Assembly: GCA_905178155.1 (NCBI GenBank)
Contig: CAJINV010000005.1
Location: 3,947,556-4,011,555, forward strand
From: Amoebophrya sp. A120
Lineage: Eukaryota; Protista; Dinoflagellata
DNA length: 64,000 bases
Reading direction: 5' to 3'
The notes below the pieces were generated by a model. That model ran no database searches and was not told the origin of the DNA. It saw nothing but the letters and a program-made list of their open reading frames with translations. Positions 3,928-64,000 of the stretch are shown here, piece by piece. The position numbers and the translations under genes are program-made. Numbering within the stretch: the first letter of the stretch is position 1; every line of letters begins with the position of its first letter.

Positions 3928-6348
3928 TCATGTGCCGCGTGCTTTCGGGCTAAAAGAGACCACCGGCTTCTCGACCTTGAGCCCGGAAACCATGTCGCCG
4001 TTTTCGTACAGAAGTCGCACGGTGCAATTGTCATTTTCTAGACTTCGCTTGCCCGCCTCGAGGATCGCGGTCACCATCAGCGTCGTCTTTCCCGTCGGCA
4101 GGTCGCAGTCGCAGTCTTTGGCAGTCCTTTTTCCCTCGTTGATCTCTTTCGCGGCCTCGACAAATTTCTGGAAGCTGACGTAGCCGTACCCGCTTTGCCC
4201 GCAGTAGCAATTTCGGGAGTCGGGCACGTTGCGAATGTACAGCGGATTCAGCGACTGCAAGCCGTTCGTTTGCTCGCCGGCAAACGTGTACCCCCGGTGA
4301 CACTGGTCCGTCGTTATTTCGCCCTTCTCCATGAGGCAGAAAAAGCGCTGCTGACTGTGCACATCCGACTTTGCCGCGGTCCACGAGGCCGTGTACGTCG
4401 CGTGCCCAAAGGTTTTCGGCGACGGGGCTGCCGCGCTTTCGCTCTCTTGCGGCGTCGTCGCTGACGATGCTGCAGCAACATCCTCAACGTTAATATTTTC
4501 CCACTCCGCCATGAGCGTAATCGTGTCTTCGCAGGGACCTGTAGTGTAGACACAATCAGATGAATCTTCATCACGTGGTCGCAGGAGAAGCACAGGCTTG
4601 TGCACGAAAACACGATTTAGAGCATTGCTCGCCTGCCTTTGCGCTAATACAAGCACACACGCACATGGTAGTTTTTGCGACGTTACTAAACAGGTACAAA
4701 GATGACGACGGGCACAAAAGTGAAAGTCGGTAAAAAAGCTTTCGGGACGAGATATTAAAACCAAAATACGTCCTAGCAGCTCCTCTGCGACGCCCGTCGA
4801 CGCGAGGGCACGGACCGATACGCACCGGGCGCGACCTTGCATCATCCAGACGTGAAGGTCCACGTGGTGTGAATTCAAGTAGTAGGAAATATCGCTTGAG
4901 AGGCCGGCCCACGAGCGGAAGGTCTCCAGCTGAAATTTTGGCTGCGACATGTGGGAGATGCACTGCAAACATGGTCGTGCTGTCAGGATGCTATCAGAAG
5001 CAAAGGCAGTGACGCGAAAATCGATCACGTGCACTCGAAAATTCTAGCTAATATTTCTCGTGCTCTACTACGCAACCATATGCAACATGTGCACCGAGCA
5101 ACAGTGCGCCATGCAGGACTCTTATCTCAGCAACGTGACATGCAAGCATTGGTGAAGGTTCTTGCCCTGACCTTGATGTGACCATGATGCATCTGCAGGA
5201 TAAAGCTCGTGAAAAAGTTAAACCGACCCAGATCACCGCTGTGAATGCGCAATTTATGCACATGAAATTCGGGTTGAGCGAGTCAAAATCTGCGGTGTTC
5301 AATAACGAATTGCGTCAGCTCTTATTTGAAAAGCCTTACAGCGATTGAAGATACACGGGTCATGCCATCGTGATGTGCCTCATGCATGTTCCTTCGCTGT
5401 GCGATTGCGCAGAGTCGTAAAAATGCAAACAAGTCAAATACATTTACATTCATCACGACAAGTGAGTATGCTGATGCACCCGTATCCTAGTACGCATTTG
5501 ATGACAGGCACTGACTGATGAATTCTGAACAGGATAAATCCGTGCGTCATTGTACATCGGGTCGAATCTCTTGTGCACCTCAATTTGCAGCAAAAGATTT
5601 TTGGCCTCCGCGAGAGCGACCAGCTCCAAGTGCTCCTCCAACGTTTTCACCATGGGTTTTGTGCACATCACGTGCAGGCCCCTCTGCAGCGCGGCCTTGC
5701 AGATTTCAAAGTGAGTGTCATCGGGTGTGAACACGGAGCAGATATCCCCCGGCTGAAACGCTTCCACCGCTTCCCGGTACGCTTGCGGGTCCCGCGCCAC
5801 GCCTTTTTTGGGAAACTGCTCGAAGCTGAGGTTTTTCACGTTGTCGAACTTGATATTCTTCGCAAAATGCTCCCGAATCTGCTCAAACTTGTCACCGTTC
5901 GTGCCGCAGAGGCCGATCTTTTCGCCAATGAGTTTACGCTCGTGCATATCATGAGTAAAAGTAGCCCACCAACCCCCTAGTCAAGACAGGAAATAACCTG
6001 CTACGCAAATCTGGTTCTGGACATCGCTTTGGGGGTTGTGCATTGAAGTTTAGTTTTAGATACGGTGTGTGAGTGGGCGTAGCTGGTGCCCACGACGCGC
6101 CAAAAATTGACCGGCATACACATGCTGCGTGCAACATGACAAGGTGTCGAAGCGAAGTCGAAAGTGGGTGGTCTGGGGTTCATGCAGATTCGTGTGACAT
6201 CAAACATGGGGCGGGTACGCTTTTACACAGGATAACGCAGGTCAAAGTGGACAAGCCCGACCACTCCTAGCGATTTGTCGGATTTACTCTGACCCGACGG
6301 CGTGTAGCCCGTCACGTACTCGCCGACGCCACAGATCAGAGCGTTCAT
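3928..6348 (-). CDS. Gfo/Idh/MocA NAD(P)-dependent oxidoreductase (D-galacturonate reductase GaaA-like), multi-exon
   Basis: Motifs MNALICGVGEYVTGY...SDKSLGVVGLVHFDLR, VFTPDDTH, HVMCTKP, EVHKRFDPMY, MSQPKFQLETFRSWAG..SDISYYLNSHHVD, ASWTAAKSDVHSQQRF and GQSGYGYVSF. Confidence 0.85.
5947..6234. mobile_element. Introner family B (diverged copy)
   Basis: TATCATGAGTAAAA ... TTTTACACAGGATA; flanks GTGCA/ACGCA. Removal joins DLR|ERKLIG. Confidence 0.8.
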
Positions 6349-11216: not shown

Positions 11217-11321
11217 CGACTAGGATAGAGCAGTGTGGACGCCTCTCTGACGTGGAGTTTCCGACGACGTGGACGCCTCTCCGACTAGGATAGAGCAGTG
11301 TGGACGCCTCTCTGACGTGGA
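11217..11321 (+). repeat. 40-bp direct repeat pair
   Basis: CGACTAGGATAGAGCAGTGTGGACGCCTCTCTGACGTGGA at 11217-11256 and 11282-11321. Confidence 0.85.
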
Positions 11322-13089: not shown

Positions 13090-15807
13090 TCACTCCTGCC
13101 TCGTCTTCTCTTTTTTTTCAAACAACATGATCGTACAAAAATGCATCCTGGCAAGCTCCAGAGTGGATGAAAAGGATATAGTACCTGGCTGCATCTGGTG
13201 CGGTGTATTAGATTGCCCGTTGCTGTTTTGCAATACGGGGGGCGGGGTTCCGCTCTGAATCATGGCCATCAGCTGGTTGACCAAGGACTGTTGAGAGCTA
13301 CCGAGATTTGTTGGGTGGCTGCTATTCGGATCCATCCCACAACTCCCGTTCTGCTGCGCGCCCTTGCTGCCGGCAACGCAGCCCGGCACTCCGGTCCCCG
13401 GGGGTTGCTGCGGGCCACAGCTTCCCACAAGATTGCTGTTCGACGCGGTGGTAGACAGGGACACCAGCGGTGGGGGCGTCAGCACCGTGGACAAATGATT
13501 GTTTCCGCTGGTGTTGTTCATGATCACATTGCTCGGCTGCTGCTGGTGCTGCTGCTGGCCGCCAGTGGCGCAGCCTCCAGCTTGGCCACCGGGGAGCGGC
13601 GCCGGAAACTGCAGCTGGTGGTTCGCAGACGTGTTTTATTGTGAGGAAATATCCCCCCACCCCATATCAAAACGAAGTTTCTGATGCTGGATTTGAGTAC
13701 ACAAATCAGGTTTGTCTTGCAGAAAGTGCTTGGCGGCAATTTCTGAGCCTGTTTGGGTATGCAGAGGGGTAGTAATTACGCATGGAAAACAGGTTTGCAG
13801 TAGCCGAAAGCGCATGACAGATTGGCTTTGGAATGCGCCACATGGCTCCCATTGCCCTATAGGCAAGACAAAGACGATTTGTGACCACAAACCAGCATCA
13901 CAAGTTTTCATTTTGATATGGGGAGGGGGGATTTTTCCTCACAATATGTTTGTCGTCGACGTGGTTCCGTTGAAAGTCGACGACCTGGTTGACAACTGAA
14001 AAACCGGAGTCGAAGCGGACACGTGGTCCTGCTGCATCTGCTGCTGCATTTGGAGTTGATCCAAAAGCTGCAGCGGCAGCTGCTGGCTCTGCTCCACCTG
14101 CAGTGCGTTAGAAGTACTCTGCGAATGCTGCTGACCTGCCAGCTGCTGCTGCGAAGCAGAAGTGACCAAGCCGCTCGTCGTCCCACTTGATGAGGGGAGA
14201 GGAGGAGTGGCGGCGGTCCCCGCGGTGATTAGATTCGCGGTACTAGAGGTATTATTGCTCGCTCCACCACCTCCCCCACAGCCACTGAAAAGCTGCATGC
14301 TGCTCGGGCCGACGAGCTGCTCCAAGAAGGTCGGAAGCGAGGCTGCATGATTCGGTTGCCCGAGTTGTGGCTGTTGCAAGGACTGCGATGAACTGGGGAT
14401 GTTGGACAGGAGATTCATGCTTGTTCCCGGTTGCGCTTGCGCAGATGAGTTGTGCGGCTGAGGAAATAAGTTGAAGCTATCTTGTTGTACTCCCTGTTGC
14501 GGCGCCGGTTGCGAGGACAAAAGGTGATGCTGGAAAAGTTGCTGCCCAACGCCGGGCCCTCCTCCGAGAGGCTGGTCAAGAAAGGCAGGCAACGTGGGGG
14601 GTGGAGTATTGGAATGCACCACCGGCTGCGGTGGCGCGCCGGGGACCACCTGCTGTGAGGCTCCGTTCAATGACCCAACTCCCTGGATGCTGCTGCCATT
14701 CAAGAACCCTTGCTCCAACAGGAGCGGAGACTGTTGTTGTAACAGAGGCGGAAGATGATGCTGCTGGTTGTTTTGTTGATTTTGCGCGTGCATCTGCGGC
14801 GCCCCGGACGACGCGCCTTGCAGCTGCTGTAGGATTTGGTCTTGGTACACTTGCCGCGACAAGATCTCGGTCTGTAGCTGTTGCTTGAAAGAATCAAGTT
14901 CTTCGCGCGAGCGAAAGTTCATCGACATCAACAGTTCCGGAGGAATGGCGCCGCTCCCGGGATGACCGCCTGAAGACCCCGTTGCAGGAGCCAACTGGGA
15001 GACGCTGTTTTGCCCGACGAGATTTTCGAGGATTTGATTGGACCCCCCGAGGCTCCCGCCGGTCAAGTTGGAGAGCTGCTGCCGCAGTTGGTTCCCGGTC
15101 AGTTGCTGGAGCGACGCCTGCGAAAACTGGTTGGGCGCGGTCTGATCGAGAACGAAAAAGTTACCGCTTGATCCGCCGTCGCCAACTTCGGGCTGCGAAA
15201 GCTGCCCAACCATATTATGGCTGTGCTGCTGCATCGCATGCAATTGGGATGTGTTCCCGCTGTGGCCCCCTGGTAAGACCAGCTCTGGTTGCTGCTGCAG
15301 CTGCATCACCTCTCGATAAAGGTGCTCGGGGGAAGGCTCCACGGGCCAGGTCAAATTTTGCTGGTTCAGGTGCTGTGGCGGGCCGGATTGATGAGAGCTT
15401 GACTGCGGTTGAGGAGGCAGGTGGACAAACGGGTCTCCATGTGGTCCATGGTTTATGTTTTGTTGCTGCGGTAAAAATCCCGCCGCCCCGATCAGGTTGT
15501 CGTTGTAATTACTGTTCTGGAGGTTCATGTTGTCCACCATAGGATCAAAGAACTCAGTCTGGTGGAGCTGGTTAAAACTTCCATGGTGGTCGCCCATGCT
15601 GTGAGGACCGAGGGAATGGTTGTGGTTGTGGTACTTGCGACCTCCCTTGTTGCGCATTGGAATATCGTCATCGATGCGGAAGGGCGCGAGGCTCCGTACC
15701 TGATTTTTTGATGACCCTTGTACTTCTTTTTGTTCGAAAAAAAAAGAATGGTTCTGGGCACAATTGCAACTGGTTTGCGAACGTGGAAACAAAGGCAAAG
15801 CAGTCAC
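13090..15807 (-). CDS. Q/G/S/P-rich low-complexity protein region (possibly the C-terminal part of the CSD gene)
   Basis: ORFs 13939-15807 and 13090-13527 join in frame (TSTTN|TSANHQLQ) after removal of introner 13637-13946. Confidence 0.6.
13637..13946. mobile_element. Introner family C
   Basis: TIR TATTGTGAGGAAATATCCCCCCACCCCATATCAAAA and its reverse complement; TSD TGTTT (13632-36, 13947-51). Confidence 0.92.
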
Positions 15808-17403: not shown

Positions 17404-17850
17404 GAGGCGCGTGCGTCGGGCGTAAGAGATCGGTAAACCCGGCCCACCTTTCGAACTTCTGTCCGCTGTTTCGTTCGATTAATTCTGTGTGACTACCAAA
17501 AATTGACTACCTACGCAAAACGACCACCAGACATGGTCGCTGTACATCAGCCAAATTATTGCAACAAAACTAGACCCGTAATCTTTCGAATTTTTTTTCA
17601 TGAGGAAAAAGATCTCGTAGCTTCAACAGGCAAGTTTCTACTACTACTTTTTTAACTTTATGTCAGTCTTCGCTCTTTTTAATTTTTTCTCATTTGGATG
17701 CCTTTCATCGTTTTGTTCCCTCTTGCGCTCATCGCCTGAGATGAAGAACCCAAGTGGTTGTAAAACCAGGCATCGGAGGTGGAGGAAAAAGGCAATGAAA
17801 CAGTAGAGGCCCCTTCGCGCATGCATTGGCTTCCGCACAACGGAATCAGC

Positions 17851-49500: not shown

Positions 49501-52500
49501 CGTGGTGTCCAGTTTCTGGAAGTGCATATCGCCCTGCATCATGAGGCGAAAGCAGGCCTGGCAGGCGACGCCCTTCCCGCGCTCGACGACCCGGAAGTCT
49601 CGTTTGCGGTGCATGTCCCGAATGTCTTCGATCATCTTCTCCAGGTCCTCGGCCACTCGGTCGAAGTTCTCGTATGAACTGCAAAAGTATCGTGCTCGTA
49701 GTAATTGCAGTCATGCATGACAGTCCTGGCTTCTTAGCTAATTCAGCATTACAAATGCCTTTTCTCCTTCTGGAAAAATTTGTGATGCTATTTCTACTAG
49801 TACGATACTTTTGCAATGCATATCTCGATCATGGTATCGATGTCGTTCTCCCACGTTTCGTACGTGTTTTCGTACCGGTCGACCGCTGCCTGGGTGTAGT
49901 CCTTACGCTGCTGCTCTAAGTCGATTGCAAGTGCGGCAAACTGTGCAGTTTGGTTTTCATCTATCACAACTCATCTGCGATTTTTTTGGGCATGATCTTC
50001 GCTTGTCTAGACGTGAACTTTTGCTTTCGGAATTGGAGGAGCACTTTCTTAGAACTGGGGATATATAATATAAATATCATGAAACCTAACCAACGTTCTT
50101 GGGGAAAAAGAAAAAGCGTGAAGTGTAACTGAACTGCTACTGCCCCAAATGAAAGGAAGTGCCAACGCAATGATAAACACTGCACCAGCAGAATTGTTTA
50201 AATTCACAGAAACAAACAGATTGTTATCAAGAAGGACCTCCTCTTTTAGTTGCTTATCCCGCTCGATCCATTCTTTGTCTTTTTCCGGAATTTTTACTTC
50301 GTAGATGACGTCGATCTCCAGTTTTAATTCGTCCATTGCTTCGTAGAGAGCTGCCTCCTTGGCCCCGATACTTTCGACCTCTTCCAGAAGCTCTTCGTAG
50401 AGACGCTTGATCTTTACTAGGTAGTTTTCCGCCTTGAGCAGCGGATGAACGATGAGCCACGCTTCCCATCCGTTCTTCAACGCTGCTGCCTTCGACCGGT
50501 TGCGCAAACCAAGCCGGCGCCTAGGAATTTTGCGTGTCAGCGCTTGCGTATGCTCGGGAATTTGATTGAGGAAAGTGAAGAGATTGCAATTGGCTTGTTG
50601 TTCAGCTAACTGAGTAGTGTGTTTACTGGAGATAAGTAAAAAGCTTAGGCTGCATCTGCAACTGCATGCGACATAAGGACCGGCTTTTCTGTACGAGGCA
50701 GAGCAAATAGAAAATTGTTAATACTGGATGAAGGCCGACAGACCGATGGTGATTTTGGTGTTTTCCTTGTGTATGCGGTCGTAAACGATGTAGCGCTCCT
50801 CCATGCGATTGCAGAGGTCGTCGAAGTAGGTGTAGTCCAGTTTTTTGCGCAGCCGCTTGTACCGCTTTTCGTACCGGCAGTACCACTGCCACCGCGTGAA
50901 CAGCAGCCGCTTCCAGTGGCGCGCCTCCTGTTCCCAGAGACTCTCGGCGTAAATCTCGCACGCGTGTTGGTACCGCTCCGCCTTTTTGCGTTTCAGGTTG
51001 ATCCGCCGGGCCAGCGCGTGCAGGAGCGAGGCGCGCTCGTGCCGGGTTTTTAGGAGGAGCTTGTCCAGCCGCCGCCCCTCGGCCTCCAGCTGGGTGTTTT
51101 CGGCCACCTTGTTGTCGATCTTCTCGGTCTATGAACTGCAAAAGTATCGTACTGGTAGTATTGCAATACAAATTGGGTCAGCATGAAAAATGGAGTTTGT
51201 CATGCTGATTTAGCTTGAAGAAGAAACTTGTCTTCCATGACTGCGATTAGTAGCAGTAGGTACGACTACGATGCTTTTGCACAGGATATGGTCCACCTCT
51301 GCACGAATGTCATGGCATACTCGAGCTTATCGTCCCACTTCCCGAGCTCCTCCTCCAAGCGCGCAATCTCCTCCTTTTCCAGTTCGGACTGGGCCTTGTC
51401 CCAGTCGGCTTTGGCCTCCTTTTCGGCCTTCTCCGCCTTCCACGCCTCGTACTCCGCCAACCCGTCCTCAGAAAGATCGGAGGGTGTGCCAAGCCCGCCC
51501 CAGTAGTCGCTGTCTTCCTCGTCCTCCTCGCTGCCCTCTGTTTGATTGTTGTAGTAAAAGAATAGTGCTTAGGGGTGATATTGATCATTTTGGGACCTTC
51601 TTCGGCGCAAAAAAAAAGCCTTGCAGTTGTAATTATGTAAGTAAGCACTTTGCATTCCAAAGAAACGAATCTTCACGAACCCAAGCCTGCTTTACCATCC
51701 TTTCATGAGCGAGGAGCTCGACCTTCGAGAGCAGCACTTCATCTTTTTGCCTACAGAGGAACCAAGAAATGTAGCAGCACTTTCCAACAGATAGTAAGTA
51801 CTAATACCCTCTTCCTCATCTTCCTCCTGATCCAAGACGGATCTGCGGCGGGGCTTTTTCTCTTCGTCTTTCTTTTTCTCGCCGAAGTCTTGCGCCATGG
51901 CGGCCTCCGCGATTTTCTGGATCTCGTCGATCTCGATTTGCCCCTTGGCCATTTTCGGGTCCGTTCGGGCAAAGGTTTTGTCCGTCGCGACCTTCGCGTC
52001 AAAGACCCGGACCGTCTGGCCTATCAAATGCAAAAGTGTCTGGGTCTGGAAGATTGCGAGACTTGTCATGCTTGTCTGGCATGACCAAAAAGTTTGTGAT
52101 GCGTGTCCAAGAAGAGACCCTTTTGCCTGTCATGCAAAAGCGCAGCTTTTCATGCGAAAAACGCAACACAAAGCAGCGCAGACTTTTCTCATGCTTGGCT
52201 GTGCATTACAGAGCATTCACTATTCCCGACGCAGCATTACAATTTTCCAGACCCAGACATTTTTGCATTTGATATGGCCACAGTGGTAGCAAAAGATCCA
52301 GTTCGGACGCGGCAGCATGTGATCGCCCAGCCGACCGCTACCCGCGATGCTCTATCAAAATGAAAAATGCCCCCACCCCCAGCTTGGCAGCATTTGTGTT
52401 GCAAACCTTTCCAACAGAAACATTCCCCGTCTTGCAACTCTCAGCATCACAAATTTTCCATGCTGAATAGGTCAAATTTGTGTTGCGAAGTAGCCCAACA

Positions 52501-53900
52501 GCAGCCTGATCTGGTATGCACAAGGCACCTTGCGCACCCTGATTCTGCATCAGAAACGCTCGCAATCCTTTTATGCAAGACAAAAAGCTTTCATCTGGAA
52601 ACTTTGCATGACAAACTTCTGCATTTTTTCACTGCAATATGGGGGCATTTTTCACTGTAATATGCTCACGTTCATCTTCTTCGCCTGTTTCTGAATTTCC
52701 GCGCGCACCTGTTTGTAGGAGAGTTTGACCTCGACTGCCTTGAAGCTGTAGATCGCCTTTTTGCACTTCACGTTGGTGTATCAAATGTAAAAATGCCTGG
52801 GTCTGGAATAATGCAACTTGTCATGCTAAATCTGAAGCATGCAAAAATCTGTGTTGCGTGATTACCAAAAGTCGTCCAGTTTTGACCAAGTCGGGAGGCG
52901 GTTTCTCATGCAGGCTGGGCATGAGAAAGATCGCACAGAATCTGTCATGCTAGATCCTGCATTCCAGACCTCACGGGTCATGGAAAAGCTGCATGACAAG
53001 TCGCGCACTCTTCCAGACCCAGACATTTTTACATTTGATATGGTGCACTCGATGGCCTGTGGGACGCGCTGCCCGGTGCTTTCCTCCTGCTTCACGGTCT
53101 TTTCGGACTTCTCCTCCTCATACATCGGCGGCATTGCGGCCGGATCTTTTTCCTGCACCGCCTTGGCACGATTGTGTTTGAAGATAGTTCCTGTTATAGT
53201 GGTTTTTCTTTCGATCTAAATTTCAGTTGCATAGATAGTGCTAGCTACAGATAACGAAGATGGATCCGCGGCACATATTTTTACTGTGTCCTCAAGCGGT
53301 CTCTTGTACCAGTTGTAGACAACCACGTGCAACATTTTTAGCTGCGCGAACGGCGACGGCCGGTGAAGGGGTGAGACCATGAGAAAGTCACTTCGATTTT
53401 TCCATGCAGAGTGAGTGTGCAGCCTGCATTCTTCATCACACCCACGCACCGTCTGCGTCTGGAAAGCGCAAAGAAATGATCCTCAAGTGGAATTATAAGG
53501 CATCGTACTAAGCAATAGTGAAGAAAATCCAAAGTACGCATTTGTTTTGCGCTTCGCAGCCTGGTTTCGATCCGGTTCTCTTCTTTCTTGCGCTTCCGGC
53601 GCTCCACCTCCAGCTGCTTTTGCCGCGCATCCTCCTCGCGCTCCCGTTCCGCTGCCGTTGCGGCAGACACCATCCTGCTCGGGGACGAAGCCTAGTAGGC
53701 TGCACAAGCACTCTACTGAAGATCTCGCGCTAGTACTTAGACGACCGCAGACGTTGTTCCTTGGTCCTGTCTATCCTTGCAAACGATCGCATCCTGATGT
53801 GCCACCGCTCGCGCGCGGCCCGAAAACGGAGGTCAGCTTTGTGCTGCCGCCCCCAGCGCGCGTGTTGGGTCTGCCGTGCTCTATTGCTTGTTGTGCACAG
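43550..53900 (-). CDS. Large multi-exon coiled-coil hypothetical protein (one or two genes)
   Basis: E/K/R-rich exons (53500-53900, 51810-52021, 51289-51540, 50718-51129, 50230-50507, 49400-49672, 46789-47690). Frames join across introners (e.g. IDTMIE|NFDRVAED). Ends uncertain. Confidence 0.45.
43870..46710. repeat. Palindromic satellite / foldback-like block
   Basis: Tandem ~21-bp GCACAAAATCGATTTTGCATT at 43870-44500, dispersed AAAATCGATTTT to 46710, TTCCGGAA clusters, and a central inverted repeat 45073-45150/45419-45496. Confidence 0.85.
48791..48967. mobile_element. Introner family E
   Basis: TATGAAAGTGCACAAAT ... AATTGTGCACTCGCATA; TSD CTTTC. Joins DNEK|AFPVP. Confidence 0.88.
49673..49822. 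mobile_element. Introner family D (opposite orientation to 40322)
   Basis: TATGAACTGCAAAAGTATCGT ... ACGATACTTTTGCAATGCATA; TSD TCTCG. Confidence 0.92.
51130..51288. mobile_element. Introner family D
   Basis: TATGAACTGCAAAAGTATCGT ... ACGATGCTTTTGCACAGGATA; TSD CGGTC/TGGTC. Confidence 0.88.
52022..52274. mobile_element. Introner family A
   Basis: TATCAAATGCAAAAGTGTCTGGGTCTGGAA and its reverse complement; TSD TGGCC. Confidence 0.95.
52353..52662. mobile_element. Introner family C2
   Basis: TATCAAAATGAAAAATGCCCCCA ... TGGGGGCATTTTTCACTGTAATA; TSD TGCTC. Confidence 0.9.
52779..53040. mobile_element. Introner family A
   Basis: TATCAAATGTAAAAATGCCTGGGTCTGGAA and its reverse complement; TSD TGGTG. 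Confidence 0.95.
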
Positions 53901-55132
53901 ATGTTCATTCGTTATATTGCGACCCGCTATATTTTTTTTATATGATCAGTGTCAGTCGGTTTGCGTTGGTCCCAAACAAAAACATGCTTTTTGCGGTGGC
54001 CCTGACATCATCTGGCAAGCGGAACTGCGTAGCGCTAGCAAACCGATCAACGAAACAGGGCAGGTTTGGTACCCGTGCTCTCGCTGGGTCGTGGTCAACG
54101 TGCGACGAATGAGCGCGCCGTTTAAGAGCACGACGCTGAACGAAGCGACTCGAACGGGTGAAAAACTCTCTAGCCGCTCTTTCTTGTAAACTCGATGGAT
54201 GGAAGTCCAAGAACCACTTCTCAGCGGTACAATCTTCCGTTCGATTTTGATTCTGGAATGCACCGCTCATTTTTGATTTTGGCTAAACAAAGGGAAGCGC
54301 CGGCACCACCACGGTGAGTTTCGGAGAGGTTTGGCGGCGCGGTGCGAGAACAGAAATTTCAACTTATGCGGCCTATATGCACAATATTTTCCCCACCTCG
54401 TTGTCTCTTGCGGCAAGGCGTTGGCGATTGGGTACCTACTATACCATTTTCCGAAACTGCATCTCTATTCTTCGAATCTGAGCCTCCAATAGTAGCGGCC
54501 CGGGCGCAGTTTACTCGAATATACATCAAAGAAACGTAGTTAGTGCGTCTTGTCGCGCGGCTGCGTTGGAGGTTTTGGTTTTCTTTTTGTAGTTCTAGTT
54601 CTGTTTCATCTTTGTACAATATTAAGATCCCATCTGAAACTGAATGCAACTAATTTGCTTTTCGAGTGTACACTGCGAAAAGCGTGCGGTGGAGCATCAA
54701 AACTCAGTAGCTGTGGACGCAGGCAAACAATAGCTCCGGGTACTTCTTCGAGGCCCGTTTCTTTATTCCCAACTGACGGTGACCTCACTCAGCTTTCACC
54801 CTCCATTTGATTCCCTTTTTTTTTCCCCTGGCACAAGTTAGGAGACTCATCTTGCACGAGCAAACAGCTGCTATCTGTCATCAGCTAGCAGAAGAAAGAA
54901 AAGTAGGACTGGTGTGCTTCTGATCAATCTATTTTTGCGCAAATTAATGGCGCGAAGCTTCTGCTTGATTTTCAAAAGCACAACTATCGATATCGTAAAA
55001 TAAGTTTCAAGGTGGTCAACGTCAAGGTTTGATATATTTTCTTTTCAAATTACACTTTCTCGAAGGAGAAAGAACGAAGAACTTAAAGTTTTTCAAAAAA
55101 TCCGAAACGGAAGTCTACATTAGCTTGCGGAC

Positions 55133-58100
55133 TTACTTTTTCGGTGATGGCACCCCCGCTGGAGTACTGGCCTCCTTTTTGGGGCTGTCCAGGTTTTCCT
55201 TCGAGCTTGTCACGTTGTTTCTGCTCCGACTGGTGCCCTTGAAAAGCCCTCCGAGGAAGCCTACTCGCTTCTGATCCTGCTCGCTTTCGTCGCTTTCCTC
55301 GCTGCTGTGCTCGTTGTAAAAGTCAATCTTCTCGTTGGGGTCTGAGATCGGAACGAGAGCAAACCTGGTCAGAGGAGGACAGGTTGTTTGGTAGTTTTAT
55401 GTTTGAAATCTACTGCAATGGTCCAGCTGGTGGCCGAAAGTCGGCTTCGGCAATAAAGTCGACACAAAGAAATTATGATCCTCGCCGCGGAGAGCCACCT
55501 CATCTATCATCATCATGTCATGTTCCTGTGAACAAGAGAATATCAAATGCAAATATGTCTGGGTCTGGAAGGGTGTAACTTGCAATGCTGCATTTGGATT
55601 CTAAAAAAAATCTGTGTTGCAGGAATAGCAAAAGAGGTGCGTTTTTTGCTACGCGGAGGGAGTAATTCTCATGCAGTTGTATGGGCATCAGAAAGCCGTC
55701 ACAATATCTGTGACGCTAGGGCATGCATCACAGACATCGCCGGTGATGCAAAATCTGCATGACAAACTTCCAGACCCAGACATATTTGCAATGCATAAAG
55801 AATCAATCGAATTTACATTCCAAACTCGATCTGCAAGTCGACCATCTGTTTTTCGTCCCAGGCACGTTTCATGCGATCCGCTTCTGATTCGTACTCGCCC
55901 TTCGCCAGCGCTGCCGGAGCCGAAGAGTTCGCACTCGGGGACCCGCCGCCGGGGGTCGTCGGCGGTATGGCGCCGGGTGTGCTGGCCCCCGGTGTCGTTG
56001 CTCCGCCGGGGGAGCTGCTGCCCGCGGGCGTGGCGGCACCACTTGGCTGACTTCCAAATATCCTGGGGAAAAACGTACTACCCAATTCATAATTTCAGTA
56101 TATTGTTGTGTTTGTGACGCAGATCGTCATCCGGCTCGCCCGTATGTTCATGAGAGCCATTTTCTCAGTCATGTGATTTGGGAACTTCTTGTGACGCTCG
56201 AACTAGCACAAGCCAGACATGGCTTCGTGCTGCAGCTGCGCTGGTCACCATCAAGCACGTGATCGCAACTAAAAGAATTGTGGTCATACAGCGAGAGTGG
56301 CTCGCGCTCGCAATCGCAAAACTAAATGATTTCCCATCATGATTATCATGTACTCACGAGGACTGGGTATGTCTTTGCACAGGATATCTCCGTCTTCTGG
56401 CTTCGCACGCCGGAAGGGACTCAGGACGTTCATCAACTTCCTCGCGCCGCGAACCACCCCGGTAGCGGCTCCCTTGAGGGCACCCGACACCATTCCCAGA
56501 TCCTCGTCTGCGTCTCGCTTTCGCTTCAGCAGGGTCACGGTCTGCTTAAACTCGGGCGAAAGAATCTCCTTCGGTGTAATGGAGCCCGAAGCATAATGCC
56601 TGACGCATGCAATTATTCATCTTCATTCAAGCACCATACATATTCATTGACATAATTGCGTTCTCAACAAAGTGCCAACAGAACCCGGTGATAGAGCACA
56701 GTAGGCACGCCTGGCTTCTACTTCTACAATTAATAGCACAACAAAAGACGAGCGAAAGTAGCATATCTTTGCAACGGGGGTAAGTAGGATTTTTCCTACG
56801 TCATACATTGCCACAGTAGTACAATCAACTTACTAGATTACCGACGTTTGTGGAACGACGGATGCATTACTAGTACTGCGCAACAGAAATAACAATAAGT
56901 TTAAGTTCTTATACTTTTTCCGCCCATTGACGTAGACTTTTATTTCGATCTTCAGATTCTGGGGCTGCGTGATGAGGAAGTGACAACCGAAATTGAAGAC
57001 CGTGTCGTAGCTGGGTTTCCTCTTCAGAATGTCCTTGATAATCTCGGGCGGGTAGTGCGCAAAACCGGCAATGTCGTGGATGGGCATGCTTGCGAAATGC
57101 TCATTGCCAATGCTCAGGTTTTCGACCATGGCCTGCATCGCGTGTGGTACCGCGTCGTCCACGAGCGCCGGCACCACCTTCGCAGAACCGCCCCCAGATT
57201 TTTTCACGTCCTTCGGGTCCTCTGCCTCAAAAGTGACGTAGACTTTGTCCTTTTCAAACTTCTTCGGGATGCCTCGCACAGCGACTAGTCTGCACTGGAA
57301 CAGCATCACGTTCTGGTAGTCCTCCAGTGGCAAGCGGACGGGGGTCTTCGAGGGGGACTCCTTCGCAACTTTGCTTCCCTTTTGCAACACAAACATCCCC
57401 CCGGTCGGGACTCTTCCAGTTGTTTGGCATGAAAAGTTGTCCTCTGACTCATGCACACATAAGAGCGGCTTTTCTTCCCTTGCGCATACAAGAGCATGTA
57501 TGGCCAGAAGATGTCAGTGAAAAAAGAGACAGGCAAAAACTTGCGCAGCTTTAGACGGGTGAAGCCGCAAGTGCGTAGTGCATTTCTTGTGTCCGCATGG
57601 TGGAATCGCCTGCATGCTATAAAAATTTCTAGTCCTGCTCTTACACGGACCAAAATGTCATGAAACACACGGCCGTCCGGGGGCAGACATTGCATTGCGT
57701 AGGGATTCTTCAATTCCGGTCGTGGCAGCGCGTCAACGGTTGTGATCGGCTCGAGCTTCAGCGTTTCTAACGAGACATCCAGGTGCCCTCCCCCTTCTAT
57801 CCTGAGTAAAAACATCCCCACACCAGAGTCAAGATGGGGATTTTGCAACACAAACCTAGAACTTTTGGGGGTCACGCATCACAAGTTGCAGTCCGTAGTG
57901 TAGTGCAGGTTCGCAAGGCCAGCTGCATCAGAAATCCATCTGCTCATCCTGTTTACAGCATTACAAATTCCAAAACACGACTAAAAATGCCTCTCCTGGC
58001 GAAGCGCATTACAAATGTTCCTGGCATTGCAAATCTGCATGACAACTCTGGTGTGGGGACGTTTTTACTCAGGATACCTTCCTCTTCGTCTTCCTGCCGT

Positions 58101-61100
58101 AGCGGAATCGTGACCGCGCCGTCCTGCGCCGCTATTTCGCCGACGGGAATGCGGAAGTGCCCGAGTTGGTATGCATTGCAAATATGTCTGCGTCTGGAAA
58201 CATGTAACTTCTGATGCGCATTTTAGACCAGAGAGAGATCTGTCATGCATGGACCGCAAAAGTTGCTCATTTCTTGTCACCAAAAGAGGGAACTTGTCAT
58301 GTGGATTAGGCATCCCGTAACCTTCTCGAAACCTGTGATGCTAGGGCTTCCTTGCTAGACCTTCTGCGTCATGCAAAAACAGCATGACACTTTCCAGACC
58401 CAGACATATTTGTATTTGATAGCTGGTCATCGGAGTCAATATCGGAGTCGAACAACTCCAACGAGATATCGCCAGGAAAAATGCCCCCCCCCGAACTTGG
58501 CAGCATTTGTATTGCAAACCTTTCCAAATGAAACATTCGCCCTCTTGCATCTATCAGCGTCACAGATTTCCGATCGTGAATAGCAAAAATTTGTATTGCA
58601 AAAGACCCCAGCAAGAGCGGCGCTTGTCATGCAAGCGATGCGATATACGCTTCGACTCTGCATCAGAAAGATTCATACTCCTTTCATGCATGACAAAAAG
58701 TTTTCATTTGGAAACTTCGCATCACAAATCATTGCAACTTTGGGGGTGGGGGCAGTTTTCCTTGTAATACGACAACAGCTGCCGCTTGTTGAACATGAAA
58801 AAGTCGTAGATCTGGTCTTGCCACACCGGATTCACCGTGTATTGCAACGAAAAATCCCCCCTCCCCATATTAAAAAGGTATCCTTCGGAAAATTTGTGAT
58901 GCAGATTTGTGGTCACAAATCATTTTTGTTTTGCAAGAAGGCAAGCGCTGGGAGATGAGCCGCATTATGGGCGCGATTTGTCATGCTGGTTGGCCTACAG
59001 GGCAGGCGTTTCCCATGCTATACAGCTAGACCCGTGCGCTCCTAAACAGCTTAACTATCTGGCCACAATTCCTTACAGCAAGACAGACCTCATTTGTGTA
59101 CGCAAATCCAGCATCAGAAGTTTCGCTTTGATATGGGGAGGGGGGATTTTTCCTTTTGATACCGTGTGCTTGATCACTTTGCTTCGAAACTGCCGCGCGC
59201 CAACGCGGACGATGGCGTAGGGGTCACTCGTCGCGGCGCCGAAGAAATTAAAGTCCTTCGCGAGCAGGTTCTTCCCTTTGTGCAGTTGAAACCGCAACAC
59301 CGCTTCTGGCCGTGGGAAGGAAAGCCGCGTCATGTCGATCTAGTGCGTTTGCTTTCAACATTGCGGTGGTGAGAGAGTGCAGCTCACTTCATCACTTCTT
59401 GTTTTGCATGAAGAATATATAACGACAAACACGTCGCAGCTCGTTCTAATTTCGTACTACCTCAAATAAAAACTGCATAGGCCGAGAAGTTGAAGTGGAT
59501 TCTCGGTGTGTATCATACTGCTTCACTTTGCACTTAGCACAAACTAGAGTGCCGCGTGCTAACCTAAAACCAACGCACTATACCTCCGTCGGATCCGCAA
59601 CGGGGACGAAAATGCGATTTGGGAGGACCAGGGAATCCGTGATAGCGTTCCGGATGATGGACCGGATTGTGCCAGCCAGTACGGTATCGATTGCAAACAT
59701 GTCTGGAGAGTAATAGATACACAATGGTGCTGCGTGATGCTCCCCCTACGTGACGCTGTGGAAAGAAAGTCTTCTTCTCGCATCATCATCGTAAGTAATT
59801 ATCATCGTTAGTTGCCGCAACAAATACCCTCGCGGCGTATCACGACCTGGCAAGCGTTTTTACCCCTGGAACGAACAGGGCCTCTCTACTCAAAGAAACG
59901 GGACATTCGAATGTGCCTTTGAAAATAACTACTGATGTATAAATGTAATCCCGGCACAGTTCCAGTCCCAGACATATTTGCAGTTGATACACGGGCATGT
60001 CAATCAGGTTCGCAGCTCCGGTGAAGTCGACGTCCACTGTCGGTGGATTGATCATGAAGATCTGCAACCGATTATCAGCTGCAAATCTGTTTGTGTTCTT
60101 TCGGGAACCAGCAGCTAAGCACAGGGAAGTCGAATGTTGCTGCGTCTTCTTCTGCTCATGTAGTAGACTTCTGCAGCACAATCTTTCCTCTTTTGTCATG
60201 ACAAAGCATGGGTAGTGTTTAGTATTTGAGCACCTATCCGACATAACTGTTGCATGCGCAGGATGGAACCACTTGTTTCCTGCGCGATGTCACGACAAAT
60301 GAAGGCATCTTCACGCAGTCGTAGTATTCGCGGTCATGCACTGAAACCAAGACAGTTCTGGTTGTAGTCATCGATGTAAACAGGAAGAGTTTAGCTCCCA
60401 ATGGGTCTGCTCTGACGCCGTCCCAACAGACACAAACAACCATGCACAGAGTAGCCACCAACCACCGGCATTGTCTCCATCAATGGACGCAAAACCAGAG
60501 AAACGTATCCCAAAGAAAGCTGCTAGCATGATTTGTTTGTGCTTCTACGTATACAAAACAAGTAAGTGCGCACAAGCATCAGAGGAAAAAGTCGTCCATT
60601 GTCGAGCGTTGGTTCAACGCATGCGAAAGCACAGACATTGTTACAGAAGTTGTCTCTATTTCTATATGTTGGCTTGACAGGACGAGCGCAAAGTCATCAA
60701 ACCTGATGCGGTAGCTACTTTCCGGAGGATACGACGGTTCCTTCGATCACAAGCTTCTTCAGACCTGTGGCGGGAGTGGGTTCAGCGTTTTATTAGAAAG
60801 TATCGGCATGATGGCGGCGTCAATGTCTATCCACCTCCAAAATTGTATAAGCAAACATGAACGGATTTCGGAAACTCGAAACTCATGAAGGAGCTCAACG
60901 AGCTCTTCTAGCTTGAAAAGTGCATCTGCAGCAACCTTTTATTGATAGTCATATCTACAATTTCATCGCAAGACTCACGAATAATTCAATTTCGTGAATA
61001 ATTCAAATTGAATAACTCAATTTCATGAATAATTCAAATTGAATAATTCAATTTCATATCAAGTCTCAATCTCAGTCTCAGTCTGAATCTTAAATCTTAC

Positions 61101-64000
61101 CTCAGTCTCAAATCTTATTCGAATCTCCAATCTTATTATCAAATCTTATCTCAATCTCAAATCTTAAAAAATCTTAAATCTATCTCAGAATCATAGCCAT
61201 CTATCAAATCTTATCTCAAAAATTTTTCATACAGATCGGGGCGCAGTATCATCATATCGAAAGGGCGGGGGGGGCGCGGGGGAGTGACGTAGGGGGTCAG
61301 TCGGATCCGCGCGATCGCGTGTCACTTTCTTACTGAAATCCCTAAGGAGAAAAAGCTTCAGCTGATCGCGCGCACGGAGACATCGCGGGCAGCCGACGGA
61401 GACGGAAGGCGGCAACCGCAGCCACGGACGCTGCACCTGGAAGGCGTGCAGCGATGGCGCAGATGGATGCATCCATCAATACCTTCCCAGCATTCTACTA
61501 GAAAACCCATGCCCCGGGTAGCCAGAATAGCAGTGCTAAACACAGCAACTCGGGAAAAAAAAACAAATTCCCAATACATTTCCACTATCCCAATGAACAC
61601 CCTCCCGCGACCCTACTAGAAGATCCTTGCCCCGGGTAGCCTGAAGAGCCGTGCTAAGCACAACAACCCGAGAAGCGCTTCAGCTCTACCACCCCTTCCC
61701 GATAGCTTCCCAATACCTACCCACTATCCTTCTAGGCAAACCTTTCCCCGGGTAGCCCGAAGAGTTTTGCTAACGCGGGAAGAAACCCCGGAAAATCGAA
61801 GAGAAATCAGCTGCCTTGCGATTCTTGACAGCTGGAAATGCCCCGAGGCGTCTCCGCCCGCAAATCTATCCATCTGGCAACACCTTGGGGCGCCTTGCCC
61901 TGGAATCCCAGCTACCAATGCGCCGCGGATGCCTTTTCAAAGTGTTCCCCACAGCTGGATTCCAAGCTAGAAATCGAAAGCCGTCTTCTACTACAAATCG
62001 AGCTGCCAACACTTTGAAAAGGTCGGGCGGAAAAGCGCTGAAAAAGCCCTCTCGATGCCGTCCCATCTGGAAGGATTTCCCTCGAAAAGGCGTTTCCAGC
62101 AAGCTGGATTTCCATTGCCGCGGCGTCTCCAGCTGGATACTCTTCGAAGCGGCGCCCTCGAAGGGTTTCCAGCAGGAGGCGCGTTGCTTGCGGGTGCCTC
62201 TTTGTTTAAGTAATGCACTGCCTCCCTGCTGGATTTCCTCCCGGCTAGAAAAAAACGCGCCTCCATCTGGGTTTCCCGCTAGGAATGCTCTGAAAAGGCG
62301 TCCCCGGCTCCATTTCACGCTAGAAATACTCTGCAAAGACACGGCCGGCTGAATTTCTTCCAGCCGGGGGCGCTTTGGCGATGCCTCTCCCGCTGGATTT
62401 CGTTCTGGGAACGCGCTGGCGATGCCTTTCCGCCTGGATCTCTAGCCGGAAACACGCTGCCGCTGCCTTTCCGGCTGTGTTTCCTTTCAGCTAGAAAGGC
62501 GCTGAGACGGCATTGCTAGCTGGATTCCCTGCTGGACACACACCGGGGCGGCGTCGCTAGCTGGCTTTCTAGCTAGAAACGCCCTGAGACGGCGTCGCTA
62601 CGTGGGTTTCCAGCTAGAAACGCACTGAGACGGCGTCGCTTGCTAGATTTCCAACCAGAAACGCACTGCGAAGGCGTCTCTAGCCGCGTTTCCGGCTCGA
62701 CATGCTTTGAAAAGGCAACCACTAGGCCGCGGGGGGATGCGGCGCGAGGCGCAGCAGTGTTGTTCCCCGGTGATGCGCAAAGCGTGCGCGTCCCGCAGCG
62801 GGGGGTGAACTTTGTGAAAAATGCTCCTTCTAGCGCAAGTTTGCGATGTCACACCGAGCGGGCGAAGCTGTTCGAGTCTCGTTCTTGAACTACATTGATT
62901 TGCCTAGAGCTAGACAACATACGTTGGTGAAACTCAAAAAACAACATCATGGTGTAAAAAAGTATGCTCTCCATACCAAGCTTCATTTTCAACACTCTCA
63001 TGGAAATATCGAGGTTCGGCTTCCACGATATGAAGATGTCGATTTCGAACCCCTTCAGGTCCTGCTTGTCCTTCTTGTACGCGTGCACCGGCCCAAGTTC
63101 TGGTGCCTCGTCTATCGTAAGGGAAAATCCCCCCTCCCCATATTGAAAAGGTATGTCTCCGAAAATTTGCGTTGCTGATTTGAGGTCACAAATCACATCT
63201 GTCTTGCAAGAAGGCATCTCCACAAGCTCCGCAGCATTGTGCAGGCGGTTTGTGATGCTGATGGGCCTACAGCACGGACGTTCCTCGTGCTAGACGCCTA
63301 GGCCAAAACCTCTCTACTTAGGCTTAGCATGGGCCTGCATTTCTCTCCAGCAAGACAGATCTGATTTGTGTACGCAAATCCTGCATCAGAAACTTCGTTT
63401 TGATATGGGGAGGGGGGATTTTTCCTTTTGATATCGTCCCCAAGATAAAAGCTGGTAATTTTGATTCCGTTCAGCGGCACCGGAAGCGAGGCCTGCTATC
63501 AACTGTAAAAATGTCTGGGTCTGGAAGATTGGGGGAGTTTGTCATGCAAATTTTACATGACCTGCGATGTCGGTGATGCATGCTTTAGCATTACAGGTTT
63601 TGTGCAGGATTTCTCATGCGTATACTGCATGAGAAATGCCTTCTCAGAATAGCAAAAATCTGAGTGCCGATTGCTGGTCATGCAATCAAGGCTTTTGTAT
63701 CATCGAAAGTTAGCATCACAAATTCCATTCTTTCCAGACCCAGACACTTTTGTATTTGATACCTGCAGCGTGGGCTCGATCTCGTCCTTTAGCAACTTGA
63801 GCACCGCTTTGTTTATGTACGGCCAGAGCGCCTTCATTGTCAGATTCAACCATTGCAGTCCCTCGCCCGCGGCGACCACCTTGCCGCCACCTAGATGCGA
63901 AGCACGGCTTCCCGAGACGTGCATGTGCGAGTCTCGCATCTGCGGAGGAGTTCCCCCCTTGTCCGGGCTGTCGGTACTAGCGTTTATATCCTGAGTAAAA
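55133..64000 (-). CDS. Extended synaptotagmin-like protein (SMP + C2 domains), 5' end beyond the window
   Basis: EGLQWLNLTMKALWPYI, FYLGD|EAPELG, LVLRPLMETMPVVGG|LQIFMINPPTVDVDFTGAANLIDMP, LVLPNRI, and C2 motifs NLLAKDFN..SDPYAIV..SKVIKHT|VNPVW..LELFDSDIDSDDQL. Confidence 0.88.
55541..55797. mobile_element. Introner family A nested in a GT-AG intron
   Basis: TATCAAATGCAAATATGTCTGGGTCTGGAA ... CAGACATATTTGCAATGCATA; TSD GAGAA/AAGAA. Confidence 0.88.
56059..56386. mobile_element. Eroded introner-type intron
   Basis: TATCCTG...CAGGATA ends. Removal plus 5 nt joins EDG-E-SQPSG; the TSD is no longer similar. Confidence 0.55.
57798..58076. mobile_element. Introner family B
   Basis: TATCCTGAGTAAAAACATCCCCACACCAGAGT and its reverse complement; TSD CCTTC; 279 bp, same length as the 29946 copy. 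Confidence 0.95.
58170..58421. mobile_element. Introner family A
   Basis: TATGCATTGCAAATATGTCTGCGTCTGGAAA ... TTTCCAGACCCAGACATATTTGTATTTGATA; TSD GTTGG/GCTGG. Confidence 0.9.
58467..58769. mobile_element. Introner family C2
   Basis: TATCGCCAGGAAAAATGCCCCC ... GGGGGCAGTTTTCCTTGTAATA; TSD CGAGA/CGACA. Confidence 0.9.
58840..59161. mobile_element. Introner family C
   Basis: AAAAATCCCCCCTCCCCATAT TIR core; TSD CCGTG. Confidence 0.92.
59685..59989. mobile_element. Introner family A (diverged)
   Basis: TATCGATTGCAAACATGTCTGG ... CCAGACATATTTGCAGTTGATA; TSD TACGG/CACGG. Confidence 0.85.
60073..60453. mobile_element. Eroded introner-type intron
   Basis: Coding strand TAC...GATA plus 5 nt; joins VVGG|LQIF. 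Confidence 0.55.
60506..60731. mobile_element. Partly eroded introner-type intron
   Basis: TATCC...GGATA with flanks AAACG/CGACG; joins EGTV-A-LVLRP. Confidence 0.7.
60980..61225. repeat. AT-rich low-complexity repeats in intron
   Basis: GAATAATTCAA(A)TT units followed by AATCTT/ATCTCA units. Confidence 0.7.
61490..62700. repeat. GC-rich degenerate tandem repeats in intron
   Basis: Three ~118-bp units containing CCCCGGGTAGCC..GTGCTAA, then CAGCTGGA/AGCTAGAAACGC.CTGAGACGGCGTCGCT units. Confidence 0.7.
63113..63433. mobile_element. Introner family C
   Basis: TATCGTAAGGGAAAATCCCCCCTCCCCATAT ... ATATGGGGAGGGGGGATTTTTCCTTTTGATA; TSD TCGTC. Confidence 0.93.
63497..63761. mobile_element. Introner family A
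   Basis: TATCAACTGTAAAAATGTCTGGGTCTGGAA and its reverse complement; TSD CCTGC. Joins EPTLQ|ASLPVP. Confidence 0.93.
63987..64000. mobile_element. Left end of a family B introner (truncated by the window)
   Basis: TATCCTGAGTAAAA is identical to the family B terminus. Confidence 0.7.

What the first reader, a model, noticed from the sequence alone, without database searches (positions are those of the whole stretch)
5947..64000. At least five unrelated MITE-like intron families obey one rule: 5-bp TSD + TAT...ATA
Seen: about 20 elements of 150-322 bp in families A, B, C/C2, D and E. All start TAT, end ATA, carry terminal inverted repeats and are flanked by a 5-bp direct repeat of unconstrained sequence (TGGCA, TGTTT, CCTCA, TCTCG, CCTTC, CCGTG, CCTGC...). 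Wherever I checked, removing the element plus one repeat restores the frame and conserved motifs (SDR TSA-NDYA, C2 KHT-VNPVW), with no consistent GT-AG. Known: inverted-repeat introners with non-canonical splice sites are described in Amoebophrya. Inference: a single transposase and a single non-GT-AG excision/splicing system serve all families. The 5-bp TSD + TAT terminus fits no DNA transposon superfamily I can name (Transib has 5 bp but CAC ends).
Basis: partly seen in the sequence, partly recalled or inferred. Interest (0 to 1): 0.9.

Follow-up and report, generated by a model that had tools for sequence, protein, structure and literature searches.

The report
Amoebophrya introners with a fixed cut
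These are the already published transposon-like introns of the marine parasite Amoebophrya: they stay in the DNA and are missing from spliced transcripts, cut one base before and four bases after their inverted-repeat ends at the junctions that could be resolved, likely by a hairpin-guided variant of the spliceosome.

Summary
The window holds 22 complete elements. Two host proteins match Amoebophrya sp. A120 proteins at 98-99%. Farhat 2021 described TAT-starting inverted repeats and 5-bp direct repeats in A120; Gozashti 2025 lists one family as '5-bp TSD, TA/TA termini', Ginger-like. Spliced-type contigs skip exactly element+5 nt at 8 of 8 junctions seen directly, and genomic-type contigs keep the 4 elements they span. 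In 231 further elements from another public assembly, 173 have an exact 5-bp duplication. Not found in print: diverged duplications fix the cut at 1 nt before TAT and 4 nt after ATA, even where no direct repeat is left. In that register every first/last base pair occurs and elements lie in both orientations, so excision likely follows hairpin geometry, not GT-AG. The families are not wholly unrelated: they share TAT-N7-AAA ends and a GCATSACAA motif 40-54 nt inside. No transposase was found; the splicing machine is untested.

The parts
5947..6234 (-). introner, 288 bp, diverged duplication (GTGCA/ACGCA), in a Gfo/Idh/MocA oxidoreductase gene
   Evidence: public A120 protein P0107 reads FDLRERKL, which needs at least 4 bases of the upstream copy kept; R follows [FL]DL in 73 of 80 homologs with the motif, 120 examined
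13637..13946 (-). introner, 310 bp, TSD TGTTT
   Evidence: frame restored in silico; no RNA test
24722..24939 (-). introner, 218 bp, TSD CCTCA; reads GT-AG in the 1/4 register
   Evidence: no RNA test
29946..30224 (-). introner, 279 bp, TSD TGGCA, in the SDR gene
   Evidence: removal of element+5 matches public A120 protein P0001 at 80 of 80 residues
40322..40471 (-). introner, 150 bp, TSD TGTTG; sits just downstream of a possible AG acceptor
   Evidence: no RNA test
47692..48669 (-). long introner, 978 bp, TATGG...CCATA ends, TSD CTTTT; no Pfam hit in its longest frame
   Evidence: RNA contig length fits removal of element+5
48791..48967 (-). introner, 177 bp, TSD CTTTC
   Evidence: spanned by X1 contig 48641-49700; RNA contig length fits removal
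49673..49822 (-). introner, 150 bp, TSD TCTCG
   Evidence: RNA piece ends at the TSD and length fits removal
51130..51288 (-). introner, 159 bp, one TSD mismatch; opposite orientation to its relative at 49673
   Evidence: RNA joint 51125/51290 in X3 and X6, skip 164; orientation
52022..52274 (-). introner, 253 bp, TSD TGGCC
   Evidence: RNA contig length compatible but not uniquely
52353..52662 (-). introner, 310 bp, TSD TGCTC
   Evidence: RNA contig length compatible but not uniquely
52779..53040 (-). introner, 262 bp, TSD TGGTG
   Evidence: RNA contig length compatible but not uniquely
55541..55797 (.). element of the same family inside the GT-AG intron 55365-55816
   Evidence: joint 55362/55815
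56059..56386 (-). old introner, 328 bp, duplication decayed (CCAAA/TCTCC)
   Evidence: RNA joint 56054/56388, skip 333; kept in X1 contig 55773-57825
57381..57701 (-). old introner, 321 bp, ends TTT...GTA, no direct repeat left; fixes the cut register alone
   Evidence: RNA joint 57376/57703, skip 326, zero ambiguous bases; end-to-end hairpin z -2.96; kept in X1 contig
57798..58076 (-). introner, 279 bp, TSD CCTTC; reads GT-AG in the 1/4 register
   Evidence: RNA joint 57792/58077, skip 284
58170..58421 (-). introner, 252 bp, one TSD mismatch
   Evidence: RNA joint 58163/58421, skip 257; hairpin z -2.90, outermost 8 bases unpaired in the model
58467..58769 (-). introner, 303 bp, one TSD mismatch
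   Evidence: RNA joint 58460/58769, skip 308
58840..59161 (-). introner, 322 bp, TSD CCGTG, in the C2-like stretch KHT-VNPVW
   Evidence: RNA joint 58833/59161, skip 327
59685..59989 (-). introner, 305 bp, one TSD mismatch
   Evidence: RNA joint 59680/59991, skip 310; kept in X1 contig 59137-60200
63113..63433 (-). introner, 321 bp, TSD TCGTC
   Evidence: no RNA test
63497..63761 (-). introner, 265 bp, TSD CCTGC; reads GT-AG in the 1/4 register
   Evidence: no RNA test
63987..64000 (.). start of a further element (same end as 29946/57798), cut by the window end

Best explanation
These are the introner elements published for Amoebophrya sp. A120: short inverted-repeat elements, likely non-autonomous DNA transposons, that stay in the genome and are missing from spliced transcripts, cut 1 nt before TAT and 4 nt after ATA at the junctions that could be resolved, likely by a spliceosome that is guided by the end-to-end hairpin instead of GT-AG. 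Step 1 (inferred): an integrase-related transposase acting in trans binds the shared ends (TAT-N7-AAA plus GCATSACAA 40-54 nt inside) and inserts the element through a 5-bp staggered cut, in either orientation and with little target preference. Step 2 (predicted): the ends pair in the pre-mRNA. Step 3 (shown for 8 junctions by skip length; register fixed by 6 of them together): element+5 nt is removed, so the original exon is restored. Step 4 (inferred): the element's first T becomes intron position +2, the U that host GT donors also carry, and a U1-independent spliceosome finishes the job. Odds: identity and RNA-level removal about 0.97; fixed 1/4 register as the general rule about 0.8; spliceosome as the machine about 0.5.
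For: Two window genes match named A120 proteins at 99% and 98%. X3 and X6 contigs skip GT-AG introns and skip element+5 at 8 of 8 directly seen element junctions; three more fit by exact length. The observed joints give a 590-codon open frame across 55100-60063. X1 contigs keep GT-AG introns and span 4 elements without a difference at depth 41-46, like the flanks. X1 contigs from other loci diverge exactly at the element ends (83, 58, 57 and 53 contigs at 49822, 55541, 55797, 59161). The allowed cut positions at the 8 junctions intersect in one value. In 231 elements from another assembly, TAT is at 440 of 462 ends and an exact 5-bp duplication at 173; 4-bp at 1, 6-bp at 0. For the spliceosome: the register puts T at +2 in 22 of 22 and is the only one of six that gives any GT-AG (3 of 22); 4 of 5 host GT-AG introns seen in RNA start GTA; all nine motifs listed as predominant for A120 in Farhat Table S4 have T at +2; nearly all spliceosome proteins are present and U1 snRNA was not detected; tunicates splice MITE-derived non-canonical introns with a modified spliceosome.
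Against: No base preference of spliceosomal type was found. The purine excess at intron +1 in the window (18 of 21, p 0.002) did not repeat in the larger set (75 of 122 against a 56% background, p 0.24; 58 of 85, p 0.048, at a stricter strand call, matched by a pyrimidine excess at the mirror position). G/G plus A/C first/last pairs were not enriched (24 of 122, p 0.10; antisense control 22) and all 16 pairs occur. T at +2 follows automatically from the TAT end, so it cannot separate a sequence need from geometry. A stable stem must open for spliceosomal catalysis (established knowledge, recalled). The RNA evidence is assembled contigs from 2 samples of 1 study, labelled 'RNA?' by the tool. 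X1 may be the window's own source. The exact register leans on one decayed element (57381) and on 58170. No RNA was laid on the 231 outside elements. No transposase was found, and Farhat found none in A120.
Confidence: 0.55

Rival explanations
1. Same elements and register, but a separate protein machine (a structure-specific endonuclease plus an RNA ligase) cuts the hairpin base at fixed distances, as proposed for Euglena nonconventional introns.
For: All 16 first/last base pairs occur. Elements lie in both orientations (691 same-strand vs 661 opposite-strand pairs, not independent), and 49673 and 51130 are opposite and both removed. Excision persists with no direct repeat. In Euglena the code is also a paired motif plus spacers, 3 nt at the 5' side and 5-6 nt at the 3' side, and the authors suggest non-spliceosomal factors.
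Against: No candidate enzyme was looked for or found. The register coincides with the host's GT+A donor pattern. Models leave the outer bases of older elements unpaired, so a strict stem-end ruler would have to tolerate that.
Confidence: 0.35
2. The junctions are reverse-transcriptase template-switch artefacts across a hairpin with direct repeats.
For: A hairpin plus short direct repeats is the classic setting (established knowledge, recalled). The contigs presumably come from cDNA.
Against: The 57376/57703 joint has zero shared bases and 56054/56388 has one, yet both skip element+5. The element-free form is the main contig (depth 215.6 and 81.5). 15 of 22 elements would shift the frame if kept and the other 7 have stops in all three minus-strand frames. 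Removal restores conserved motifs.
Confidence: 0.03
3. The elements are removed from DNA, like ciliate internal eliminated sequences, before transcription.
For: The anatomy (TA-like ends, short repeats, precise restoration) resembles that (recalled). The X1 joint table was swamped by repeat hits, so a minor excised DNA form is not excluded.
Against: X1 contigs span 4 elements at the depth of flanking single-copy DNA, while the spliced-type contigs lack them together with GT-AG introns. Farhat defined these introns from RNA-seq on the genome.
Confidence: 0.03
4. The shared 5-bp/TAT rule does not reflect one transposase. Several transposons insert, and only those whose duplication equals the 1+4 nt removed, and whose ends fit the splicing factor, survive in exons.
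For: The 978-bp element has a different end (TATGG) and lacks the GCAT[GCT]ACAA motif, yet fits element+5 removal. A 3-kb TIR element with a 6-bp duplication and TTG/TTA ends exists at 43755-46787. Gozashti lists an A120 family with 8-9-bp TSD and GG/CC ends.
Against: All six multi-member families share ends and a subterminal motif at a fixed distance. 55541, which lies in an ordinary intron, has the same anatomy.
Confidence: 0.3

Closest known systems
Amoebophrya sp. A120 introner elements (Farhat et al. 2021, PMC7789003)
   Same: Inverted repeats starting TAT, then seven variable bases and at least three A; direct repeats of 3-5 nt (5 bp in the Fig. S19 legend); many families; non-canonical RNA-supported borders; host proteins 98-99% identical to A120 proteins.
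   Different: Nothing in kind. The paper calls the splice sites variable relative to the hairpin and the border position unknown (Fig. 3 legend); here one register fits all 8 junctions. The GCATSACAA motif is not in the sections I read. The figures were not visible.
A120 introner family 38 and other TIR families (Gozashti et al. 2025, PMC12130899, file 8)
   Same: [quoted passage not shown]
   Different: Family 38 is about 810 bp with ORFs resembling Copia/Gypsy sequence; no such ORF was found here. [quoted passage not shown]
IS3EU/GingerRoot and Ginger2/TDD DNA transposons
   Same: IS3EU/GingerRoot have TA..TA ends (TAYGG..CCRTA in fungal IS3EU, as in the 978-bp element); TDD-4/5 make 5-bp duplications.
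   Different: IS3EU/GingerRoot make 6-bp duplications; Ginger ends are TGTNR. No transposase is available to place these elements.
Euglena nonconventional introns (PMC12501133)
   Same: MITE-like paired ends, no GT-AG, cut at set spacer lengths from the paired motif, longer spacer at the 3' side, coexistence with GT-AG introns.
   Different: Motif CAG/CTG with spacers of 3 and 5-6 nt and a purine need at the 3' exon start; here TAT/ATA with spacers of 1 and 4 nt and no clear base need.
Fritillaria borealis non-canonical introns
   Same: MITE-derived, with TIR and TSD, non-GT-AG.
   Different: They keep preferred ends (AG-AC, AG-AT) and are tied to duplicated U2AF; here the ends vary freely.

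Membership tests
Amoebophrya A120 introner elements | Host is A120 or a near-identical strain | tested here: met
   99% and 98% identity to named A120 proteins; A25 orthologs 53% and 64%
Amoebophrya A120 introner elements | Inverted repeat starting TAT, seven variable bases, then AAA | tested here: met
   positions 11-13 are A in 31, 36 and 34 of 38 ends; definition
Amoebophrya A120 introner elements | 3-5 nt direct repeat at the borders | tested here: met
   exact 5 bp in 14 of 22 here and 173 of 231 outside
Amoebophrya A120 introner elements | Removed from RNA, mostly at non-GT-AG borders | tested here: met
   8 of 8 directly seen junctions; 1 of these 8 can be read GT-AG
Amoebophrya A120 introner elements | Repeated in families across the genome | tested here: met
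   six multi-member families among 253 elements; 29,034 X1 contig pieces laid on a 13-kb stretch
MITE (non-autonomous TIR transposon) | TIRs, constant-length TSD, no coding capacity | tested here: met
MITE (non-autonomous TIR transposon) | Autonomous partner with the same ends and a transposase | tested here: inconclusive
   none in the window or in 417 kb of loci; no whole genome was available
MITE (non-autonomous TIR transposon) | Empty orthologous sites in a sister strain | not testable with these tools
   the outside loci did not overlap the window's genes; X9 gave no exon coverage
Ginger1/Ginger2 | TGTNR termini | tested here: not met
   TAT at 440 of 462 ends, TGT at 2; definition
Ginger1/Ginger2 | 4-bp TSD (5-bp in TDD-4/5) | tested here: met
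   5 bp, as in TDD-4/5 only
IS3EU/GingerRoot | TA..TA termini | tested here: met
   definition
IS3EU/GingerRoot | 6-bp TSD | tested here: not met
   exact 6 bp in 0 of 231
IS3EU/GingerRoot | IS3-like DDE transposase | not testable with these tools
   no autonomous copy at hand
U2-type spliceosomal intron | GT-AG (or GC-AG, AT-AC) ends | tested here: not met
   GT-AG in 3 and AT-AC in 2 of 22 in the 1/4 register; GT-AG in 3 of 122 outside
U2-type spliceosomal intron | Lariat intermediate and dependence on U2/U6 | not testable with these tools
   needs raw reads or experiments

The most novel reading that the evidence does not exclude
Amoebophrya A120 runs a second, base-blind splicing system that measures from the base of a transposon hairpin, cutting 1 nt on one side and 4 nt on the other. 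The sum equals the 5-bp target duplication, so any insertion in either orientation is erased from the mRNA without a scar. It would be non-spliceosomal and convergent with the Euglena system, and it would explain how tens of thousands of elements colonised exons.
Probability: 0.3. Interest if true: 0.85.

Novelty: already known. Interest (0 to 1): 0.35.

Why it matters
The elements are published, so the finding as written is a rediscovery. How they are spliced and what moves them is still open in the papers I read. Two details make that testable. First, naturally diverged duplications reveal the cut site and point to one register (1 nt before TAT, 4 nt after ATA) that needs neither GT-AG nor the direct repeat. 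Second, a shared motif at a fixed distance from the ends is a handle for finding the transposase or the RNA-binding factor. If the rule holds genome-wide, it would let about 30,000 introns be re-annotated exactly, and it would define a minimal cassette that is removed without a scar.

Tried and rejected
No whole genome was held, and the records behind the outside loci could not be searched, so no genome-wide hunt for an autonomous element was possible. The end pattern had 0 matches in viral contigs. No transposase or integrase family was found in 31 window frames or in 38 of the 42 long frames of the loci (the 4 left out are duplicates from overlapping loci). The longer TAT...ATA/5-bp elements in the loci (457-1031 bp, 5 found) have no stop-free frame over 151 aa. 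No run was on record as an RNA holder. My idea that the first intron base must be a purine held in the window but not in 122 outside elements: rejected. My idea of G/G or A/C end pairing was not supported. Rebuilding the transcript across 52022/52353/52779 from contig length gave 179 solutions, a few with a fully open frame, so it is compatible but not proof. Read-through as coding sequence was rejected. Three look-ups in earlier findings of this scan returned nothing. Searches for a paper that fixes the A120 cut register listed none; Roy 2023 and Henriet 2019 (Curr Biol) were not read and may bear on this.

Full report
Observation. The elements are there. A scan for TAT...ATA flanked by an exact 5-bp repeat gave 23 pairs, 14 with real inverted ends and 9 chance pairs; five more have one mismatch in the repeat. 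A scan that imposed neither TAT nor the repeat length gave 7 TAT/5-bp hits against 0 in each of 10 shuffles. RNA joints added two decayed copies, 56059-56386 and 57381-57701. The total is 22 complete elements, plus one cut by the window end. The host genes examined run on the minus strand.

What it is. The SDR gene matches a protein named Amoebophrya sp. A120 at 99% and the oxidoreductase gene another at 98%. Farhat 2021 (PMC7789003; I saw the abstract, sections 10, 11 and 16, passages, supplement part 3 and supplement legends, not the figures) reports that A120 inverted repeats start with TAT, then seven variable bases and at least three A, with direct repeats of 3-5 nt, 29,850 copies and 1954 families. 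The Fig. S19 legend shows 5-bp repeats. The window's ends fit this: positions 11-13 are A in 31, 36 and 34 of 38 ends. Gozashti 2025 (PMC12130899; passages, and parts 15-17 of 33 of file 8, so not all 58 A120 families) labels family 38 'Ginger; 5-bp TSD, TA/TA Termini' and most others seen 'TIR DNA, Unknown'. The rule in the finding is therefore in print.

RNA or DNA. Runs X3 and X6 (2 samples, 1 study; 'RNA?' by the tool's guess) skip GT-AG introns, so I take them as spliced RNA. They skip exactly element+5 nt at 8 of 8 element junctions seen directly. Some rows were flagged 'between: not known'; record coordinates leave no room for extra letters (105 = 40+65 nt in X3; 79 nt at the start of the X6 record) and the table of extra letters was empty. 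Three more elements fit by exact length: 303 and 118 nt predicted and observed in both runs. Three are compatible but not uniquely. One (55541) lies inside a GT-AG intron. Two (29946, 5947) agree with public A120 protein models. Five (13637, 24722, 40322, 63113, 63497) have no RNA test. X1 contigs keep the GT-AG introns and span 48791, 56059, 57381 and 59685 without a difference at depth 41-46; X1 may be the window's own source, and contigs cannot exclude a rare excised form. Template switching is unlikely because one joint has no shared base at all.

The cut register. With a perfect duplication the cut can slide over six positions. Where the copies differ, the mRNA shows which was kept. Counting k as bases of the upstream copy left in the exon, the joints allow k = 0-4 (51130, 59685), 3-4 (56059), 4 (57381), 4-6 (58170) and 2-6 (58467); two are uninformative. 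The intersection is k = 4. The protein model at 5947 needs k = 4 or 5. So the intron runs from 1 nt before TAT to 4 nt after ATA. This puts T at +2 in 22 of 22 and gives GT-AG in 3 of 22, against 0 in the other five registers. All nine motifs that Farhat lists as predominant in A120 have T at +2, though aligner preference may contribute. The same paper calls the border position unknown. I found no paper fixing it. The sample is small, and the exact value leans on 57381 and 58170.

Larger sample. They hold 231 distinct paired elements: TAT at 440 of 462 ends, an exact 5-bp repeat in 173, at most one mismatch in 207, exact 4 bp in 1 and 6 bp in 0. The set is biased: loci were chosen by a TAT-starting pattern and about 160 of 231 are one family. 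I called the coding strand with a codon model trained on the window (right for 20 of 22 window elements, partly circular); 225 were scored and 122 passed the thresholds. In these, the purine excess at +1 seen in the window did not repeat, G/G and A/C end pairs were not enriched, all 16 first/last pairs occur, and family members lie both ways relative to the gene. These loci have no RNA test.

Families. BLAST separates six multi-member families and 8 singletons among 253 elements. They are not wholly unrelated. GCAT[GCT]ACAA occurs in 16 of 22 window elements (5.0 per kb, 0.0 per kb in the rest of the window) and 219 of 231 outside elements, in all six families, and 275 of 543 sites begin 40-54 nt from the end they point to. 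I found the motif in the window and then tested it outside. It is likely a binding site for a transposase or a splicing factor (inference).

How it likely works. An integrase-related transposase would insert the element with a 5-bp stagger (inferred; none found; Farhat found none in A120). IS3EU/GingerRoot share TA ends but make 6-bp duplications, and Ginger2/TDD can make 5-bp duplications but has TGT ends (passages of PMC10045372, PMC12730594, PMC2836005), so membership fails for each. The ends are predicted to pair in RNA. Removal at 1 and 4 nt from the stem sums to the duplication and restores the exon. I favour a hairpin-guided, U1-independent spliceosome (about 0.5) for the +2 T and +3 A match to host donors, the intact protein set without U1 snRNA and the tunicate precedent (review passages; preprint abstract). 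Indifference to the end bases and to orientation keeps a separate endonuclease-ligase open (about 0.35), as suggested for Euglena, where a paired motif with 3 and 5-6 nt spacers is the code (abstract and discussion of PMC12501133). Passages of PMC12005148 and PMC11453091 add that other Amoebophrya strains use GT-AG.

Verdict. Real, and already known as A120 introner elements. The fixed cut register, its independence from the direct repeat and the shared subterminal motif are small additions that make the open mechanism testable. Interest 0.35.

Noticed in passing
window 43755-46787: 3.0-kb element with long inverted ends (TTG/TTA starts) and a 6-bp duplication CCTGTC, holding 21-bp tandem repeats and inner palindromes. 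It sits a few codons before the stop of a minus-strand gene; in-silico removal continues the frame for six codons.
   Followed up: partly
window 47692-48669: The 978-bp element ends TATGG...CCATA, the terminus reported for fungal IS3EU, but has a 5-bp duplication and lacks the GCAT[GCT]ACAA motif. X1 depth over it is about ten times the flanks, so it is likely repeated.
   Followed up: partly
window 40317-40480: Element 40322 lies just after a TTCTAG that looks like a GT-AG acceptor; in the 1/4 register this would leave a 4-nt micro-exon between two introns of different type.
   Followed up: no
window 47200-60069: One 7607-nt X3 contig covers the gene at 55-60 kb and continues through the next minus-strand gene at 47-53.5 kb, over an unspliced 1.8-kb stretch (53537-55362). 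Overlapping or read-through transcripts are possible; a contig cannot show a single transcript.
   Followed up: no
window 61300-62050 and L019:3832-4516: A GC-rich block with 41-bp and 117-bp internal repeats, inside a likely 2.2-kb intron, has a 69-77% match in an outside locus, so it is another repeat family without TAT ends.
   Followed up: partly
window 32480-34000 and 35440-35980: Imperfect tandem duplications of 300-440 bp and of 50-100 bp between genes.
   Followed up: no
window 17800-19800: GC-rich 2-kb block (65% GC) flanked by two similar direct stretches (about 17865 and 19760); no Pfam hit in the one frame tested; possibly another mobile element.
   Followed up: partly
L022:3314-3770, L044:571-1051, L045:3862-4492, L063:3001-4031, L069:3792-4763: Longer TAT...ATA elements with exact 5-bp duplications that carry 60-680 bp of extra sequence inside, likely nested insertions; no long ORF.
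   Followed up: partly
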